A stretch of DNA of 64,000 nucleotides from Thermoanaerobaculum sp. (GTDB lineage Bacteria > Acidobacteriota > Thermoanaerobaculia > Multivoradales > UBA5704), in NCBI GenBank assembly GCA_021154885.1, contig JAJKHS010000055.1, forward strand, positions 1,559 to 65,558. The letters run 5' to 3'. Below, piece by piece: positions 10,698-60,700 of the stretch. Under the pieces are notes generated by a model, which saw only the letters and a list, made by a program, of their open reading frames with translations, was not told the origin of the DNA and searched no databases. Numbering within the stretch: the first letter of the stretch is position 1; the number at the start of each line of letters is the position of its first letter. The position numbers and the translations under genes were made by a program.

Positions 10698-10725
10698 GCC
10701 CTCACCCCTGTCCCCTCTCCCATCG

Positions 10726-10796
10726 CCCCCCCCGACCGGGAGAGGGGAACCCGGCTGAAGGGTTCTTGCCTTTCTCCCTCTTCTCCCGGTCGGGGG
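10726..10796. repeat. long GC-rich inverted repeat (16-20 bp stem, ~35 nt polypyrimidine loop) downstream of purH; terminator- or REP-like
   Basis: ccccccgaccgggaga (10727-10742) is exact reverse complement of tctcccggtcgggggg (10781-10796). Confidence 0.5.
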
Positions 10797-10893
10797 GAGT
10801 GCGGTGGGAGAAGAGGGCCGGGGTGATGAGGGTCTTGGTGGAAGCTTTCCCCTCCGCCCCCTGTTTGAAACGGACAGCATGGGAGACCCGACC

Positions 10894-25520: not shown

Positions 25521-25705
25521 CGCCCTCCCCAGTGGGGAGGCCTCTCTCCGCAGTGGGGACGCCCCTCGCCCCTAGGGGATGCCCCTCGCCCCTTATGGGG
25601 ATGCCCCTCGCCCCAGTGGGGACGGCCTCTCGCCCCAGTAGGGAGGCCCCTCTACCCAGTCGGGATGCCTCTCTCCCCAATGGGGAGGCCCCTCTTCCCC
25701 TCGCC
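25521..25705. repeat. tandem direct repeat array, ~8-9 units of 20-22 bp (consensus CCCAGTGGGGAGGCCCCTCGCC) in convergent intergenic gap
   Basis: Units read directly: cagtggggacgcccctcgcc / cctaggggatgcccctcgcc / ccttatggggatgcccctcgcc / ccagtggggacggcctctcgcc / ccagtagggaggcccctctacc / cagtcgggatgcctctctcc / ccaatggggaggcccctcttcc; unit length varies so not coding. Confidence 0.7.
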
Positions 25706-54087: not shown

Positions 54088-54400
54088 GGCGGTTTCCCTC
54101 GGGCTGAAAATCGAAGCCTATGGCCGGGGGCAGGGGGTGTCAAGGAGCGCTCGCATATCCCGGATACCGGCGGCGCAGGAGGGGCAGGGGCACGAGGTTC
54201 GAAAGCGGCACCAGCGATCCGGCGAGCGGGTTGAGATCGGCCATCTCCCGCGGCGTCAGCGGCCGGATCGACAGCACCCGCCGTTGCGGACGCGCCGTCT
54301 GGGGATCGCAACCACGCTCCAGGAATGCCGCCAGGAGCCAGCGGCCGAGGGTACGGCGAGCCGCGTTCACGGAGGGATTGTACTCCGCGGAGAAAGCCGG

Positions 54401-54481
54401 AGACAGGGACAGCAGGGACTCCAGGGACTTCAGGGACGAAGCTCCTGCCTCGTGTCTCTGGAGTCCCTGCTGTCCCTGTCT
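54401..54481. repeat. palindromic heptad element, copy A: four CAGGGAC heptads (9-bp register) - 33-nt spacer - four GTCCCTG heptads; arms are a perfect 24-bp inverted repeat
   Basis: agacagggacagcagggactccag (54401-54424) vs ctggagtccctgctgtccctgtct (54458-54481), exact reverse complements; 42 nt upstream of MarR start. Confidence 0.75.
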
Positions 54482-54522
54482 GGCCCCTTGCCTTCACTCC
54501 GTCATCCCTGTATGATTCACCC

Positions 54523-54960
54523 ATGAACGAAATTCCCGCAGCCGTCTGCCCCACCTCCCTCGCCTTCCAGATGCTGGGCGCGGCGCACGAGGTGGAGGCG
54601 CGGCTGGAGAGCGCGCTGGACCGCATCGGCCTGTCGGTGGCGAAGTTCGGCGTCCTTTCCAAGCTCGTGGAGGCCGGCGAGCCTCTGGCCCTGGGGTCCC
54701 TCGCGGAGCGCTCGTGCTGTGTGCGATCGAACATGACCCAGCTCGTGGACCGCCTGGAGGCCGACCGCCTCGTGGAGCGGATCAACGATCCCAGCGACCG
54801 CCGCTCCGTGCGCGCCGCCTTGACGCCCGCCGGCCGCGAGCGCCACGCCGAGGGTGCGCACATCGTCGAGGAGGCAGGACGCGCGGTCTTCGCCAGCCTG
54901 GACGACGGCGAGCGCGCCACCCTGCAGCGCGTCCTCGCACAACTGGGGAGGAGTCCCTGA
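54523..54960 (+). CDS. MarR-family transcriptional regulator
   Basis: LSVAKFGVLSKLVEAGEPLALGSLAERSCCVRSNMTQLVDRLEADRLVERINDPSDRRSVRAALTPAGRE. Confidence 0.8.
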   Translation: MNEIPAAVCPTSLAFQMLGAAHEVEARLESALDRIGLSVAKFGVLSKLVEAGEPLALGSLAERSCCVRSNMTQLVDRLEADRLVERINDPSDRRSVRAALTPAGRERHAEGAHIVEEAGRAVFASLDDGERATLQRVLAQLGRSP

Positions 54961-55040: not shown

Positions 55041-56159
55041 ATGACCGAATCTCATGAGCACCCACATCACCCGATATTGACCCCTGTTCAGCTCGGCCCC
55101 TACACGCTGCGCAACCGGATGGTGATGGCGCCCATGACGCGCAGCCGGGCCGGCGAGGGATTGGCGCCGACGCCCATCGCGGCTACCTACTACGCCCAGC
55201 GGGCCTCGGCGGGCCTCATCGTCACCGAGGGCTCGCAGGTCTCGCCCCAGGGCGTGGGCTATCCGAACACGCCAGGCATCCACTCCGACGCCCAGGTGGA
55301 GGGGTGGAAGCGGGTGACCGCGGCCGTGCACGAGCAGGGCGGGCGGATCTTCCTCCAGCTCTGGCATGTGGGGCGGGTCTCCCATCCCTCGTTCCAGCCG
55401 GAGGGCGCGCTGCCGGTGGCGCCCTCCGCCATCGCGGCCGAGGGGACGGTGCGCAGCGCCGACGGCCCCCAGCCGTTCGTCGCGCCGCGGGCCCTGGAGC
55501 TCGCCGAGATCCCCGGCGTCGTCGCGCAGTTCGCCCACGGCGCCCGGAGTGCCCTGGAGGCCGGCTTCGACGGCGTGGAGATCCACGGCGCCAACGGCTA
55601 CCTGATCGACCAGTTCCTGCGCGACGGCACCAACCACCGCACCGACGCCTATGGCGGGCCGGTGGAGAACCGGGTCCGCTTCCTCGTCGAGGTCGTCGAA
55701 GCGGTGGTAGGCGTCTGGGGCGCGGACCGCGTGGGGGTCCGCTTCTCGCCCACGGGAACCTTCAACAGCATGTCCGACTCAGACCCGGTGGCGACCTTCG
55801 GTCACGCCGCCCAGGCGCTCGATCGCTTCGGTCTCGCCTACCTGCACGTCGTCGAGCCTTCCAGCGGCCGCTTCGCCGTGCCGGGAGCGCCCGCCGTGGC
55901 CCAGGCGATGCGGGAGCGTTTCCACGGCGCCTTCATCCTGAACGGCGGCTTCGACCTCGCGACCGCCGACGCCGCCATCGCCGCGGGACAGGCGGACCTC
56001 ATCTCCTTCGGCCAGCTCTTCCTGGCCAACCCGGACCTCCCCGAGCGCTTCGCCGAGGGAGCGCCGCTCAACGCGCCCGACTTCGCCACCTTCTACACCG
56101 GCGGCGAGAAGGGCTACGTCGACTACCCAGCGCGGGACGCGGTGGCTGCGGCAGTGTAA
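55041..56159 (+). CDS. Old-Yellow-Enzyme-family NADH:flavin oxidoreductase (NemA-like ene-reductase)
   Basis: VMAPMTRSRA, AQRASAGLIVTEG, FLQLWHVGR, GFDGVEIHGANGYLIDQFL, RVGVRFSP. Confidence 0.85.
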   Translation: MTESHEHPHHPILTPVQLGPYTLRNRMVMAPMTRSRAGEGLAPTPIAATYYAQRASAGLIVTEGSQVSPQGVGYPNTPGIHSDAQVEGWKRVTAAVHEQGGRIFLQLWHVGRVSHPSFQPEGALPVAPSAIAAEGTVRSADGPQPFVAPRALELAEIPGVVAQFAHGARSALEAGFDGVEIHGANGYLIDQFLRDGTNHRTDAYGGPVENRVRFLVEVVEAVVGVWGADRVGVRFSPTGTFNSMSDSDPVATFGHAAQALDRFGLAYLHVVEPSSGRFAVPGAPAVAQAMRERFHGAFILNGGFDLATADAAIAAGQADLISFGQLFLANPDLPERFAEGAPLNAPDFATFYTGGEKGYVDYPARDAVAAAV

Positions 56160-56204: not shown

Positions 56205-56470
56205 ATTGGACGACCCTGCTGCAAAACTCGCGAGGCCTGGTACGGCCTCGCGAAGCCTGCTGCGGAGCTCGCGAGGCCCGGTCCACGCCTCGCGAGCCCT
56301 CTACGAGATTTCGTGAGTTTTGCAGCAGGCCTCGCGAGCCCAGTACAGGGCTCGGGAACTTTGCAGCACGCCTCGCGAGCCTTGTAACAAGTCTCGCGAG
56401 TTTCGCAACAGGGCTCCCGATCTTCGCGGCAGGGCTCGCAATCCCTCCACCGGGATTCGCGAGCTCAGCG
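56205..56470. repeat. tandem direct repeat array, ~12 units on a strict ~21-bp register, each carrying the palindromic octamer CTCGCGAG (or 1-mismatch variants), in convergent intergenic gap
   Basis: CTCGCGAG-like starts at 56227, 56247, 56268, 56289, 56331, 56351, 56372, 56393, 56435, 56456 (intervals 20/21/21/42/20/21/21/42/21). Confidence 0.65.
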
Positions 56471-58556: not shown

Positions 58557-59462
58557 TCAAGCCGGCTCGCCCTCGAACGGCTCCATGTGGACCAAGACCC
58601 CGAGCACTGTGGGCACCGCGGCCTGGATGGCGCTCTTGACCTTGCCGCTGACGACATGGGCGTCGTGGAGCGACATGGCGGGATCGGCCTGGACGTGAAT
58701 GTCCACGAACAGGCCCAGGCCGGCCCGCCGCACTTTGAGCTTCTCCGTGGCCGCCACCTCCGGAACCGACATCGCGGCGGCGGCGATGCGCTCCACCACC
58801 TCGCCCTCGGGGCTGCGGTCCATCAGGTCGCCGACGGCCGGCCGCAGGATGCGGACGCCGTTGAAGAGGATCACCGCCGCCGCGGCTAGGGCCGCCCAGT
58901 CGTCCGCCGAGGCCCACCTCGGGCCGCCGACCAGGGCGATGCCGATGCCGATGGCGGCCGCCGCCGAGGTCAGGGCGTCGCTGCGGTGGTGCCAGGCGTC
59001 TCCCTTGACGGCCGTGCTCTCCACTTCGGCCCCCACCTTGAAGACGCGGCGGAAGAGGACCTCCTTGACGGCGATGACCGCCAGGAGGACCGCCAGCGTG
59101 AACGGCGCCGGCGAGTGGTGGGGGATGCGGATCTCCCGCACGGCTTCGATCGAGATGCCACTGGCGGCCCCGACGAGCATGAGGCCCACCACTACCGCGG
59201 CCAGGGCCTCGGCCTTGCCGTAGCCGAAGGGGTACTGCTCGTCGGCCGAGCGGGCCGAGATCCGCAGGCCGCTCCAGACGATGAAGGAGGAAAAGACGTC
59301 GACCAGCGACTCCACGGCGTCGGCCACCAGGGCGTAGGAGTTGCCCAGCACACCGGCCAGGAACTTGATCAGGGCCAGGCTGGCGTTGACCAGCAGCCCC
59401 GACTGGGCCGCCCGGGCCCCCCGCTCCGCCCGTTCGCGGATCACCTCCTCCCCGATCTGCAT
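58557..59462 (-). CDS. cation diffusion facilitator (CDF) family metal efflux transporter
   Basis: 6 TM N-domain with ...ALVADAVESLVDV..., HHRSDALTS..., C-terminal cytoplasmic domain; start ATG 59460-59462. Confidence 0.8.
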   Translation of the reverse strand: MQIGEEVIRERAERGARAAQSGLLVNASLALIKFLAGVLGNSYALVADAVESLVDVFSSFIVWSGLRISARSADEQYPFGYGKAEALAAVVVGLMLVGAASGISIEAVREIRIPHHSPAPFTLAVLLAVIAVKEVLFRRVFKVGAEVESTAVKGDAWHHRSDALTSAAAAIGIGIALVGGPRWASADDWAALAAAAVILFNGVRILRPAVGDLMDRSPEGEVVERIAAAAMSVPEVAATEKLKVRRAGLGLFVDIHVQADPAMSLHDAHVVSGKVKSAIQAAVPTVLGVLVHMEPFEGEPA

Positions 59463-59491: not shown

Positions 59492-59603
59492 GGACGGCAG
59501 GGACTTCAGGGACGACAGGAACTTCAAGGACGCGAAGAATGTCGCCAAGACGGATCTTCTTCGTCTCTTGTCCTATTGTCCCTGTTGTCCCTGCCGTCCC
59601 TGG
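59492..59603. repeat. palindromic heptad element, copy B (degenerate): ggCAGGGACttCAGGGACgaCAGGaACttCAaGGACg ... cGTCtCTtgTCCtatTGTCCCTGttGTCCCTGccGTCCCTGg; 30 nt upstream of CDF transporter start
   Basis: Same CAGGGACnn x4 / GTCCCTGnn x4 architecture and shared core cagggacttcagggacga as copy A; inner gaagaa...ttcttc IR. Confidence 0.65.
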
Positions 59604-59620: not shown

Positions 59621-60700
59621 CTACGGGCAGGTCGCGAAGGCGCTGCTGTCGGTCACCGCGGGAGCGGGCGGACCGGCGTAGTTGAAGTAGACCTTGTTCT
59701 GAAACGCCTTGGTGTCGAAGACTTCCATGCGGTAGAAGCGATCGGTCGTGGCCGCGGAGTAGATCCAGTAGCGGCTGTTCAGGGAGCAGGCGTTGATCGC
59801 CTTGACCATCACCTCCCAGTTGTCCGAGCTGAAGAACCAGAAGACGCCCGAGTTGGGGCCGGCAAAGACCACGTGCGCGGTGCCGTCGCTGGGACCCGGC
59901 GTGGTCGCGGTGCGAAAAGTCGTGGTGATGAGGAACCGGCCCTGCAGACAGAGCTGGTTCACGGTGCTCCCCGAGCACGGGGGGCCGGCCGGGAAGTTCA
60001 GATACCCGACGCCCGAGCCGGTCAGGACGCCGTTGTGCCCGCCCACCACGTCGTTGGCCGTGGCCTGGAGAGACCAGACCGCCACCAGCCCGGGCTGGGC
60101 CGTGTTGATGGGCACGTTGATGGTGCTGCGGATCTGGTCCTGGGTGCGGGCCACGTTCCACAACCGCACTTCGTTGATGGCGCCGTGCGGCGTGTGATTC
60201 GGGTATTTGACGTCGCTGCCGATTTGCAGCGGATCCCCGGTGGCCGGCAGAGAGCCGGTGTCGGAGACGCTGAGGACGACCTCGCCGTTGATGTAGTGCT
60301 TGCGGGTGACGCCATCGTAGACCACCGCGAAATGAGTCCATTGACCCGCCGGAAGGGTCCCTCCATCCTTGAGGCTGGCGGTGCCCTTGAGGTAGGACCT
60401 CAAAGTCGTGCCGCAGATGCCGACCCACCAGGCCTGCTGGTAGTTCTTGCCGACGATGTTGCTGCAGCCCCCGAGATCGGTGACGTTGACCCAGCCTTCG
60501 AGGGTGAAAGCGCTCACGGGGTTGAGCGCCGCGACACTCGGAACGTTGACGTAGCCGTTCGCCGGCCCGGTGAGGGTCAGCCAGGCATTGAACGGCTGGG
60601 CCTGGGCCGCCGGGGCGAGCCACAGGGCGAACGCGAACACCGCCAGCCAGATGGCGGGGAGCCGCCGCCTTCCTGAACTGAGAATTTCACTCATCGCCAA
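59621..60700 (-). CDS. secreted LamG/concanavalin-A-like lectin-fold protein
   Basis: Signal peptide (possible RRRL Tat-like); AFTLEGWVNVTD, GKNYQQAWWVGI, HFAVVYDG, YINGEVV, LQIGSD, INEVRLWNVARTQDQI = LamG_3 pattern. Confidence 0.6.
   Translation of the reverse strand: MAMSEILSSGRRRLPAIWLAVFAFALWLAPAAQAQPFNAWLTLTGPANGYVNVPSVAALNPVSAFTLEGWVNVTDLGGCSNIVGKNYQQAWWVGICGTTLRSYLKGTASLKDGGTLPAGQWTHFAVVYDGVTRKHYINGEVVLSVSDTGSLPATGDPLQIGSDVKYPNHTPHGAINEVRLWNVARTQDQIRSTINVPINTAQPGLVAVWSLQATANDVVGGHNGVLTGSGVGYLNFPAGPPCSGSTVNQLCLQGRFLITTTFRTATTPGPSDGTAHVVFAGPNSGVFWFFSSDNWEVMVKAINACSLNSRYWIYSAATTDRFYRMEVFDTKAFQNKVYFNYAGPPAPAVTDSSAFATCP

What the first reader, a model, noticed from the sequence alone, without database searches (positions are those of the whole stretch)
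54401..54481. Palindromic CAGGGAC-heptad element (copy A) in the MarR/ene-reductase promoter region
Four CAGGGAC heptads on a 9-bp register, a 33-nt spacer, then four GTCCCTG heptads; the two 24-bp arms are perfect reverse complements. The element ends 42 nt before the MarR start codon. A second, diverged copy with the same architecture and shared core (cagggacttcagggacga) lies 30 nt upstream of the CDF metal-efflux gene (59492-59603). Two copies in 64 kb, both directly 5' of stress-response operons, suggests a dispersed family that is either a regulatory operator array (9-bp phasing is unusual; heptad x4 suits a multimeric binder) or a mobile miniature palindrome that targets promoter-proximal sites.
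Basis: seen in the sequence. Interest (0 to 1): 0.55.

Follow-up and report, generated by a model that had tools for sequence, protein, structure and literature searches.

The report
Stop-codon-adjacent heptad hairpin repeat family
The two CAGGGAC palindromes belong to a previously undescribed family of about 90-base hairpin repeats scattered through Thermoanaerobaculia (Acidobacteriota) genomes, usually just after stop codons, so they are REP-like intergenic repeats and not operators of the MarR or metal-efflux genes.

Summary
The sequence is real, but it was described too generously. Copy A has four CAGGGAC units on a 9-bp register. On the right it has only two perfect GTCCCTG units and one degenerate unit, not four. 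The 24-nt perfect arms and the 33-nt spacer are correct. Copy B is as described.

Both copies belong to a large family. I analysed 142 palindromic members from Thermoanaerobaculia and other Acidobacteriota genomes and from soil metagenomes.
- The modal design is 4+4 units of (C/A)AGGGAC plus two variable bases.
- The CAGGGAC array always comes first.
- The outer flank is purine-rich.
- The loop is variable.

Family members abut stop codons (median 9 nt). They are 2.3-fold enriched between convergent genes and depleted between co-directional genes. Only 18% lie between divergent genes.

Copy B is typical: it starts 18 nt after the stop codon of the Laminin_G_3-domain gene and is retained in the closest relative. 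Copy A is atypical. It is a lineage-specific, roughly 90-nt insertion between back-to-back promoters. That site is empty in four relatives and holds other sequence in three.

Best reading: these are REP/BIME-like extragenic repeats that form hairpins at mRNA 3' ends. One observation stays unexplained: the heptads are almost invariant, while the spacers are neither conserved nor complementary. This hints at an unknown sequence-specific binding protein.

The parts
54395..54484 (.). Copy A: the whole stretch that is extra compared with the empty orthologous sites (cgcggagaaagccggaga + heptad palindrome + tctg)
   Evidence: Alignment with L114 and L115, whose empty site reads ...ggattctactc|(t)gccccttgcc. 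L236 and L240 are also empty.
54404..54437 (+). Copy A left arm: 4 perfect CAGGGAC units on a 9-bp register, with spacers AG, TC, TT
   Evidence: nhmmer arm profile E=3.1e-12
54438..54453 (.). Copy A loop (gaagctcctgcctcgt). It begins with the GA(R)GAA(A)GCTC-type motif seen in the loops of non-orthologous copies.
54454..54478 (-). Copy A right arm: 3 units (GTCTCTG, GTCCCTG, GTCCCTG), not four
   Evidence: nhmmer E=1.6e-6
54488..54516 (+). Sigma-70-like promoter of marR (TTGCCT, 17 nt, TATGAT), 6 nt before the ATG, so probably a leaderless mRNA. It is conserved in relatives that lack the element.
54523..54960 (+). MarR-family regulator gene, followed by the OYE-family ene-reductase gene at 55041-56159
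   Evidence: Pfam PF01047 and PF00724; gene calls
54140..54370 (-). Divergent 76-aa ORF, called as a gene and conserved in relatives. Its -10-like TACAAT (reverse complement of 54383-54388) lies directly left of the insertion.
   Evidence: the -10 assignment is read from the sequence and is inferred
59492..59603 (.). Copy B: the whole interrupted palindrome between the Laminin_G_3-domain gene stop and the CDF gene start
59498..59531 (+). Copy B left arm: CAGGGAC, CAGGGAC, CAGGAAC, CAAGGAC
59532..59562 (.). Copy B loop (gcgaagaatgtcgccaagacggatcttcttc), nearly identical in the ortholog L113
59563..59602 (-). Copy B right arm: two compressed degenerate units (GTCTCTT, GTCCTAT) and three perfect GTCCCTG units
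59621..60700 (-). Laminin_G_3-domain gene. Its stop codon lies 18 nt from copy B, the typical family position.
58557..59462 (-). Cation-efflux (CDF) gene downstream of copy B

Best explanation
Copies A and B are two members of a dispersed family of non-coding, interrupted palindromes, about 90 nt from array to array. The family occurs in Thermoanaerobaculia and related Acidobacteriota.

Each arm is a short tandem array, most often 4 units, of a 9-bp unit. The unit is the near-invariant heptad (C/A)AGGGAC followed by two variable bases. The purine-rich array always comes first and its reverse complement second.

The elements behave like REP/BIME-type extragenic repeats.
- They sit almost directly behind stop codons and often fill the whole spacer between convergent genes.
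- They are avoided between co-directional genes, where a hairpin or terminator would be polar.
- They persist at orthologous sites over long divergence while unit number, spacers and loops turn over.
- They can appear at new sites without a target duplication.

Inferred mechanism: when transcribed from either side, an element folds into a long hairpin of 7-bp helices separated by small internal loops, followed by a moderately U-rich tail. This hairpin defines or protects the mRNA 3' end, acting as a weak bidirectional terminator or a barrier to 3' exonucleases.

Copy B is a typical member at the 3' end of the Laminin_G_3-domain gene. Copy A is a young, lineage-specific insertion between the -10 of the leftward 76-aa ORF and the -35 of marR. 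It probably has no dedicated regulatory role, although it must have displaced the upstream part of the leftward promoter.

Shown: the family, its architecture, its positions, and its gain and loss. Inferred: RNA hairpin or terminator function, and the mode of spread.
For: Family and taxonomy:
- A three-heptad scan of reference genomes gave at least 111 loci. Twenty-one have the two-armed arrangement. All 21 have CAGGGAC first and none the reverse order.
- A palindromic pattern gave at least 118 metagenome loci.
- The window comes from GCA_019509815.1, and its ene-reductase homologues are named Thermoanaerobaculia.

Architecture, from 142 elements:
- Units per arm are most often 4/4 (54 elements), then 4/5 or 5/4 (37).
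- Heptad positions 2-7 are 92-100% conserved, while the two spacer bases are nearly free.
- The outermost unit is AAGGGAC in 31%. The outer 11 nt are purine-rich.

Position:
- I used a codon-log-odds gene caller that recovered 51 of 55 official gene calls.
- With it, 48 elements are tandem, 39 convergent and 19 divergent, against control spacers of 429, 98 and 100.
- The stop codon is a median of 9 nt from the array (IQR 4-21.5, n=149). Start codons are a median of 66 nt away.
- In 37 of 48 tandem cases the element is nearer the upstream stop.

Tails: there are 3.7 U in the 10 nt after the hairpin on transcribed sides, 3.1 on untranscribed sides and 1.6 in background (p=0.019).

Turnover:
- Twelve orthologous pairs with 74-95% flank identity keep the element but differ by 9-nt unit indels, spacers and loops.
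- One locus has 24 identical CAGGGACTA units.

Site A is empty in L114, L115, L236 and L240. It is filled by another repeat family in L234 and L237, and by unrelated sequence in L113. Site B is retained in L113.

No Rfam family matches. There is no transposase among the neighbours.
Against: - No transcript data exist, so hairpin, terminator or stabiliser function is inferred from position only.
- Only 29% of transcribed-side tails have 5 or more U in 10 nt, and copy B has no U-tract on the gene strand. Canonical intrinsic termination is therefore doubtful.
- Pairing itself shows no sign of selection. Spacer bases of the two arms are mostly non-complementary: 56% against 28% expected for the outer spacer, and about chance for the inner ones. 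Heptad variants are not compensated on the other arm.
- The near-invariance of the heptad is not explained by a hairpin role.
- 18% of copies, including copy A, lie where no gene ends.
- No mobilising enzyme, conserved terminus or target duplication was found.
- All family members were retrieved through heptad patterns, which inflates the apparent conservation of the heptad.
Confidence: 0.6

Rival explanations
1. The heptads are binding sites for an unknown sequence-specific, oligomeric nucleic-acid-binding protein, with four sites per arm spaced 9 nt apart. The protein, not the hairpin, gives the element its function. That function could be protein-assisted termination or insulation at gene ends, or recognition by a mobilising enzyme.
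For: - Heptad positions are 92-100% conserved, while the 2-nt spacers are nearly free and mostly not complementary between arms. There is no compensatory change.
- The modal unit number of four per arm and the fixed orientation argue for a defined design.
- Conserved short motifs separated by free spacers are typical of oligomeric binders such as TRAP or iteron-binding initiators (my own knowledge).
- In phage contigs, inverted triple CAGGGAC arrays flank 74-82 bp next to primase genes and look like iterons.
Against: - No candidate protein was found, and no gene recurs next to the elements.
- Retrieval through heptad patterns exaggerates heptad conservation.
- In the only pair not retrieved by pattern (window against L113, copy B), the heptads changed at several G positions while the spacers of the left arm stayed the same.
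Confidence: 0.2
2. The element is a classical MITE. The heptad arrays are multi-site terminal inverted repeats bound by the transposase of a related autonomous insertion sequence, which moves the element by cut-and-paste.
For: - Copy A shows presence/absence polymorphism at its site.
- The size is 70-140 nt, the element has inverted arms and it codes for nothing.
- Loops of some non-orthologous copies share the motif GA(R)GAA(A)GCTC, which suggests common descent.
Against: - There is no target-site duplication at the one insertion that has an empty-site reference.
- There is no conserved terminal sequence beyond the outermost unit.
- No pair of arrays separated by a gene-sized distance occurs in about 1.3 Mb of fetched loci.
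- There is no transposase nearby.
- Copies within one genome do not share loops.
Confidence: 0.08
3. There is no mobility. Local terminator hairpins containing GGGAC/GTCCC expanded in place by replication slippage of a 9-nt unit, and the similarity between loci is convergent.
For: - Unit-sized indels separate orthologs.
- One locus shows a 24-unit perfect expansion.
- At site B, relative L114 carries only a simple hairpin, AGGGGACCCG...CGGGTCCCCT.
- Purine-rich sequence with 9-nt periodicity (GGGAGAAGA) also occurs in the other repeat family of these genomes.
Against: - Copy A appears as one roughly 90-nt block at a site that is empty in four relatives.
- The same heptad, orientation, modal 4+4 design and outer AAGGGAC unit recur in over 140 loci from many genomes. 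Independent origin is an unlikely explanation for this.
Confidence: 0.08
4. One reading: the element is a regulatory operator array that controls marR/ene-reductase and the CDF efflux gene, for instance as the MarR operator or a stress regulator site.
For: - Copy A lies 5-6 nt upstream of the marR -35.
- Copy B lies 29 nt upstream of the CDF start.
- The palindromic repeats would suit a multimeric binder.
Against: - Copy A is absent from the same promoter region in seven relatives whose -35/-10 are conserved.
- Copy B is positioned like most family members, 18 nt after a stop codon.
- Most family members lie between convergent genes or behind unrelated housekeeping genes.
Confidence: 0.03
5. 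The element is a G-quadruplex / i-motif switch. Four GGG tracts with 6-nt loops on one arm compete with hairpin formation.
For: The left arm of copy A matches G3N6G3N6G3N6G3. The modal four units per arm is the minimum needed for an intramolecular quadruplex.
Against: - Only 168 of 284 arms, and both arms in only 60 of 142 elements, carry a canonical quadruplex motif.
- The bases flanking the GGG tracts (C, A ... A, C) are as conserved as the Gs, and a quadruplex does not require that.
Confidence: 0.02

Closest known systems
REP / BIME (repetitive extragenic palindromes, bacterial interspersed mosaic elements) of Proteobacteria
   Same: - Both are extragenic, hairpin-forming and high-copy.
- Both lie mainly between convergent and co-directional genes, downstream of coding regions (PMC3733652).
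- Both occur in mosaics with other repeat modules. In MAG U1354 one-armed heptad arrays sit inside another repeat.
- Both have been suggested to act in termination and mRNA stabilisation.
   Different: - Length is 70-140 nt, not 20-40 nt.
- There is no GTAG or CGTC tag.
- The element is built from 9-bp units with free spacers.
- No RAYT transposase association has been shown.
- The host phylum is different.
MITEs such as Correia elements (Neisseria), or modular BOX elements (boxA-(boxB)n-boxC) of Streptococcus pneumoniae
   Same: - All are small, non-coding, dispersed elements with inverted ends.
- They show presence/absence between strains.
- Module number varies, as for boxB.
- They can sit in promoters or 3' UTRs and alter expression (my own knowledge).
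   Different: - There is no target duplication at the one testable site.
- There is no conserved full-length consensus. Only the heptads and a short loop motif are shared.
Sequence-conserved terminator hairpins: TRIT in Mycobacterium tuberculosis, and inverted DNA-uptake-sequence pairs in Neisseria
   Same: A repeated, recognisable sequence forms hairpins at mRNA 3' ends in a genome that has few canonical L-shaped terminators (PMC3384566). Such hairpins are often found between convergent genes.
   Different: - The U-tail here is weak.
- The heptad is not over-represented elsewhere in the genome, as an uptake sequence would be. Outside the elements AGGGAC occurs at about half the expected rate.
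STRR heptanucleotide tandem repeats of heterocystous cyanobacteria
   Same: Both are short tandem units of about 7 nt, in intergenic regions, lineage-specific and variable in copy number (my own knowledge).
   Different: STRR units are contiguous 7-mers and are not organised as 9-bp units in two inverted arrays of about four.
Iteron-type replication origins, for example phage P4 ori bound by the alpha primase-helicase
   Same: Both have arrays of a short motif at sub-helical-turn spacing in direct and inverted orientation. Phage contigs L244/L298 and L291/L299 carry 3+3 CAGGGAC arrays next to Prim-Pol or D5_N genes.
   Different: In the phage loci the arrays flank a 74-82 bp unique core and occur once per replicon. 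The Thermoanaerobaculia elements are dispersed at 2 per 64 kb, abut stop codons and have short, variable loops.

Membership tests
REP (GTAG/CGTC-tagged repetitive extragenic palindromes) | 20-40 nt imperfect palindrome | tested here: not met
   Array-to-array length has a median of 89 nt (range 43-144).
REP (GTAG/CGTC-tagged repetitive extragenic palindromes) | Conserved unpaired GTAG or CGTC tetranucleotide at one end | tested here: not met
   The 11 flanking positions have T at no more than 11% and no conserved tetranucleotide.
REP (GTAG/CGTC-tagged repetitive extragenic palindromes) | Extragenic, mostly between convergent or co-directional genes and downstream of ORFs | tested here: met
   87 of 106 elements lie downstream of a gene. 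The stop-to-array distance has a median of 9 nt.
REP (GTAG/CGTC-tagged repetitive extragenic palindromes) | Association with a RAYT (Y1 transposase) gene flanked by the repeats | not tested
   Only neighbours at two multi-copy loci were scanned, and they are housekeeping genes. Whole-genome scans were no longer available.
MITE | Target-site duplication flanking the insertion | tested here: not met
   At site A, tactc|[insert]|(t)gcccc compared with the empty tactc(t)gcccc shows no duplication. This is a single site.
MITE | Terminal inverted repeats shared with an autonomous insertion sequence | tested here: inconclusive
   Inverted arrays are present, but no arrays separated by a gene-sized distance occur in the fetched loci. 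Genomes were not searched exhaustively.
Intrinsic (Rho-independent) terminator | G+C-rich hairpin directly followed by a U-tract | tested here: inconclusive
   The hairpins are strong. Tails average 3.7 U in 10 nt against 1.6 in background, and only 29% have 5 or more. Copies A and B lack a U-tract, and the scan finds no terminator at either copy.
Intrinsic (Rho-independent) terminator | Transcripts end at the site | not testable with these tools
   No transcriptome data are available.
MarR-family operator | Palindromic site conserved with the regulated promoter in orthologous loci | tested here: not met
   The promoter is conserved, but the element is absent in L113, L114, L115, L234, L236, L237 and L240.
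Integron attC site | R''/L''...L'/R' boxes with a GTTRRRY core, behind cassette ORFs in co-oriented arrays | tested here: not met
   There is no GTTRRRY core. Neighbours are housekeeping genes and often convergent.
Rfam RNA families | Match at the gathering score | tested here: not met
   Only sub-threshold generic microRNA-hairpin matches were found (36 bits against a gathering score of 97).
Canonical G-quadruplex motif | Four G3 tracts with 1-7 nt loops, conserved across members | tested here: not met
   59% of arms carry the motif, and both arms carry it in 42% of elements.

The most novel reading that the evidence does not exclude
The near-invariant heptads, spaced 9 nt apart with free and mostly unpaired spacers and a preferred count of four per arm, form the landing pad of an unknown sequence-specific oligomeric protein. 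This protein acts at gene ends in Thermoanaerobaculia, for example in protein-assisted bidirectional termination or insulation, or as a new kind of enzyme that mobilises hairpin repeats without target duplication. Similar 4+4 elements in a Chlamydiae MAG and an Alistipes MAG would then point to a factor or element that crosses phyla.
Probability: 0.15. Interest if true: 0.7.

Novelty: new variant of a known kind. Interest (0 to 1): 0.4.

Why it matters
Thermoanaerobaculia are known almost entirely from metagenome-assembled genomes, and nothing is known about how their genes end or what repeats shape their genomes. This family gives three practical handles.

- It is an easily recognised marker of gene 3' ends and operon boundaries, useful for annotating these genomes.
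- It is a fast-evolving locus type for strain typing, because unit number and spacers change.
- It poses a concrete biochemical question: what reads CAGGGAC at 9-nt spacing?

The analysis also removes a tempting false lead. The palindrome in front of marR is an accidental insertion, not the regulator's operator.

Tried and rejected
- Rfam search of 53-61 kb at the E-value threshold gave only generic microRNA-hairpin noise.
- Literature searches found no description of this element. I searched for the heptad, for Acidobacteria palindromic repeats and for STRR.
- blastn against the plasmid collection found nothing.
- The tight palindrome pattern gave 0 hits in viral contigs. The three-heptad pattern in viral contigs gave mostly one-armed arrays that I did not inspect and presume to be coding repeats. 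It also gave four wide-spaced inverted arrays next to primase genes, which I judged to be iteron origins in an unrelated context.
- An outer inverted repeat, GGAGCCTGCGCGGCAGAAAG, is seen in several genome loci. It is not general among 168 four-unit arms, so I dropped it as a terminus.
- G-quadruplex as the conserved feature was rejected.
- A Rho-loading (rut) role for the pyrimidine arm was rejected. One-armed arrays show no consistent orientation relative to transcription (inspection).
- I considered a CsrA-type ANGGA sponge only from memory. The motifs would be buried in the stem, and I did not pursue it.
- DNA-uptake-sequence behaviour was rejected, because the heptad is not enriched outside the elements.
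- My first GC3-based gene caller was too crude, recovering 10 of 17 official genes. I replaced it with a codon-log-odds caller that recovers 51 of 55, and repeated the context statistics.
- A search for transposases at two multi-copy loci found none.

Full report
**1. The observation**

Copy A carries four perfect CAGGGAC heptads at 54404, 54413, 54422 and 54431, spaced 9 bp apart. The 24-nt stretches 54401-54424 and 54458-54481 are perfect reverse complements separated by 33 nt. The extended 39-nt arms are 85% complementary.

The right side has two perfect units (54463, 54472) and one unit with a single mismatch (GTCTCTG at 54454). Two of the four left heptads lie inside the so-called spacer.

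Copy B (59492-59603) has 2 perfect and 2 degenerate units on the left, a 31-nt loop, and 2 compressed degenerate and 3 perfect units on the right. It shares the 18-mer CAGGGACTTCAGGGACGA with copy A.

Both copies fold into hairpins of -70 to -75 kcal/mol on either strand, with z-scores of -7.7 to -9.1. Eleven of the 15 CAGGGAC occurrences in the window lie in these two spots.

**2. Surroundings**

Pfam confirms several genes:
- MarR at 54523-54960 and an OYE-family ene-reductase at 55041-56159.
- Methionine sulfoxide reductase MsrA.
- A cation-efflux (CDF) protein on the minus strand, whose gene spans 58557-59462 in the source record's gene calls.
- A Laminin_G_3-domain protein at 59621-60700 on the minus strand.

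The window comes from contig JAEKLO010000003.1 of GCA_019509815.1. Close homologues of its ene-reductase are named Thermoanaerobaculia or Acidobacteriota.

Copy A lies between a divergent 76-aa ORF (54140-54370, minus strand) and marR. A sigma-70-like promoter (TTGCCT, 17 nt, TATGAT at 54488-54516) sits between the element and the marR ATG. Copy A is therefore upstream of the -35 and is not in a 5' UTR.

Copy B starts 18 nt after the stop codon of the Laminin_G_3-domain gene and ends 29 nt before the CDF start. All three features are on the same strand.

**3. A large family**

- Many hits have a single arm. The two I read, in Acidobacteria MAGs, look like glutamine/glycine-rich coding repeats. 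The Streptomyces and other actinomycete hits were not inspected.
- Twenty-one loci have the two-armed arrangement. The other two are in an Alistipes MAG and a Chlamydiae MAG. In all 21 the CAGGGAC array comes first and the GTCCCTG array second, never the reverse.

It found none in viral contigs.

An nhmmer profile built from 167 four-unit arms of other genomes hits the window only at the four arms of copies A and B. The window therefore holds exactly two copies in 64 kb.

**4. Anatomy of 142 elements**

- Units per arm are most often 4/4 (54 elements), then 4/5 or 5/4 (37) and 5/5 (10).
- Array-to-array length has a median of 89 nt. The loop is 0-63 nt.
- Heptad positions 2-7 (AGGGAC) are 92-100% conserved. 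Position 1 is C, except in the outermost unit, where A occurs in 31%.
- The two spacer bases are nearly free, with AG at 23%, TC at 12% and AA at 10%.
- The 11 nt outside each arm are purine-rich, with T at 7-11% and A at 57-59% at positions -3 and -2. In RNA the hairpin is therefore followed by a moderately U-rich tail.
- Beyond that there is no conservation. The outer inverted repeat I first saw in some loci is not general.
- Loops are not shared between copies of one genome. A motif GA(R)GAA(A)GCTC does recur at the start of the loop in non-orthologous copies, including copy A. This suggests common descent.

**5. Pairing does not look selected**

In the 4/4 class, the spacer bases of the two arms are complementary in 56% of cases for the outer spacer, against 28% for shuffled partners. 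For the two inner spacers complementarity is about chance. Variant heptads are not compensated on the other arm.

Only 9 of 142 elements have all spacers complementary, so copy A's perfect 24-nt arms are unusual.

Most members would fold as 7-bp helices separated by 2x2 internal loops. Variant spectra are the same on both arms, so there is no sign of a single transcribed strand.

**6. Position relative to genes**

My first GC3-based gene caller was poor. A codon-log-odds caller recovered 51 of 55 official gene calls, and I used it for the statistics.
- Of 106 intergenic elements, 48 are tandem, 39 convergent and 19 divergent. All adjacent gene pairs in the same loci give 429, 98 and 100.
- Convergent spacers are therefore enriched 2.3-fold, co-directional spacers are depleted, and divergent spacers occur at the background rate. 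My chi-square calculation on these counts gives about 39.
- The nearest stop codon is a median of 9 nt from the array (IQR 4-21.5, n=149; 123 are within 30 nt). Start codons are a median of 66 nt away.
- In 37 of 48 tandem cases the element is nearer the upstream stop.
- In many convergent cases the element is essentially the whole spacer.

U content in the 10 nt after the hairpin is 3.7 on sides where a gene reads in, 3.1 on other sides and 1.6 in background (p=0.019). Only 29% of tails reach 5 U.

Genes next to multi-copy loci are comEC, miaA, dnaE, an SDR and an ABC ATPase.

**7. Gain, loss and turnover**

Syntenic loci were fetched through ene-reductase homologues of 83-92% identity.

Site A:
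- The element is present only in the window genome.
- The site is empty in L114, L115, L236 and L240 (ggattctactc|(t)gccccttgcc).
- It is filled by a different repeat family in L234 and L237, and by unrelated sequence in L113.
- The marR -35/-10 is conserved in all of them.
- The insert is about 54395-54484 and has no target duplication.
- It sits exactly between the leftward -10 (TACAAT) and the rightward -35. This promoter reading is taken from the sequence and is inferred.

Site B:
- L113 keeps the element with a nearly identical loop but altered heptads and a rearranged right arm.
- L114 has only a simple hairpin, AGGGGACCCG...CGGGTCCCCT.

Twelve orthologous pairs among the fetched loci, with flank identity of 74-95%, keep the element but differ by 9-nt unit indels, spacers and loops. 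One locus carries 24 identical CAGGGACTA units, which shows slippage.

In MAG U1354, one-armed heptad arrays occur as modules inside another REP-like mosaic. The window has that mosaic without heptads at 10700-10838.

**8. Interpretation**

The family behaves like REP/BIME-type extragenic repeats.
- It is non-coding and hairpin-forming.
- It is concentrated just behind coding regions and between convergent genes.
- It is avoided inside runs of co-directional genes, which is expected if it is polar.
- It is modular, and it is gained and lost.

The most likely role is a hairpin at mRNA 3' ends, acting as a weak bidirectional terminator or an exonuclease barrier. REPs that lie very close to stop codons are known to influence translation and decay in E. 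coli (my own knowledge; see also PMC3733652 and PMC12320835).

Copy B is a typical member. Copy A is an atypical, recent insertion into a divergent promoter region that is a hotspot for repeats. It is not the MarR operator.

The near-invariance of the heptad beside free, unpaired spacers remains unexplained. So does the preferred four units per arm. Both point to recognition by a sequence-specific protein, which could be either a mobilising enzyme or a factor acting at gene ends. The retrieval of elements through heptad patterns inflates this signal.

**9. Comparison with known families**

The family fails the defining REP features of length and a GTAG/CGTC tag. It fails the MITE feature of target duplication at the one testable site. 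It is only loosely terminator-like and matches no Rfam family. The literature held here does not describe it.

I therefore rate it a new variant of a known kind, namely extragenic palindromic repeats. It is of moderate interest as it stands, and would be of higher interest if a dedicated binding protein exists.

Noticed in passing
window 10700-10838: A second REP-like mosaic repeat lies just after a gene end (cccctctccc...gaccgggagagggg, then ttctccctcttctcccgg...gggagaagagggccggggtgatgaggg). It is 88-93% identical to L070:3852-3928 and L034:7099-7165. In MAG U1354 the same mosaic carries a one-armed heptad array. The same family fills the marR-upstream site in L234 and L237.
   Followed up: partly
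window 25525-25700: There are eight tandem 21-nt units (consensus CTCCCCAGTGGGGAGGCCCCT). Each unit is a small hairpin (CCCCAnTGGGG).
   Followed up: no
window 56215-56460: The convergent spacer between the ene-reductase gene and the PMT_2 gene is filled with about 8 copies of a CTCGCGAG-containing unit (periods 20-21 and 41 nt). This is another family of intergenic palindromic repeats in the same genome.
   Followed up: no
window, whole: Outside the two elements, AGGGAC occurs 23 times against about 46 expected from shuffled sequence. This is a two-fold depletion of the heptad core elsewhere in the window.
   Followed up: no
L244:2696-2818, L298:796-918, L291:11551-11681, L299:6527-6657 (viral contigs): Three CAGGGAC units and three inverted units flank a 74-82 bp unique core, directly beside Prim-Pol or D5_N primase-helicase genes in L244 and L291; L298 and L299 carry near-identical elements, but their genes were not scanned. 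These are probably iteron-type replication origins that happen to use the same heptad.
   Followed up: partly
L063:2043-2258 (OW818658.1): There are 24 identical CAGGGACTA units in tandem, with a single GTCCCTG about 60 nt downstream. One arm of an element appears to have expanded by slippage.
   Followed up: partly
L079:5904-6014 (Chlamydiae MAG, GC 0.46) and L002:1451-1594 (Alistipes MAG): Elements with the same 4+4 (or degenerate 5+6) heptad architecture occur outside Acidobacteriota. In L079 the element can be read as a 36-aa ORF with a Shine-Dalgarno sequence. In L002 it is followed by a T-run.
   Followed up: no
window 54371-54522 and orthologous sites in L113, L234, L237: The short spacer between the 76-aa ORF and marR is a hotspot. 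Three different unrelated fillers occupy it in different relatives, and it is empty (57-68 nt) in four others.
   Followed up: yes
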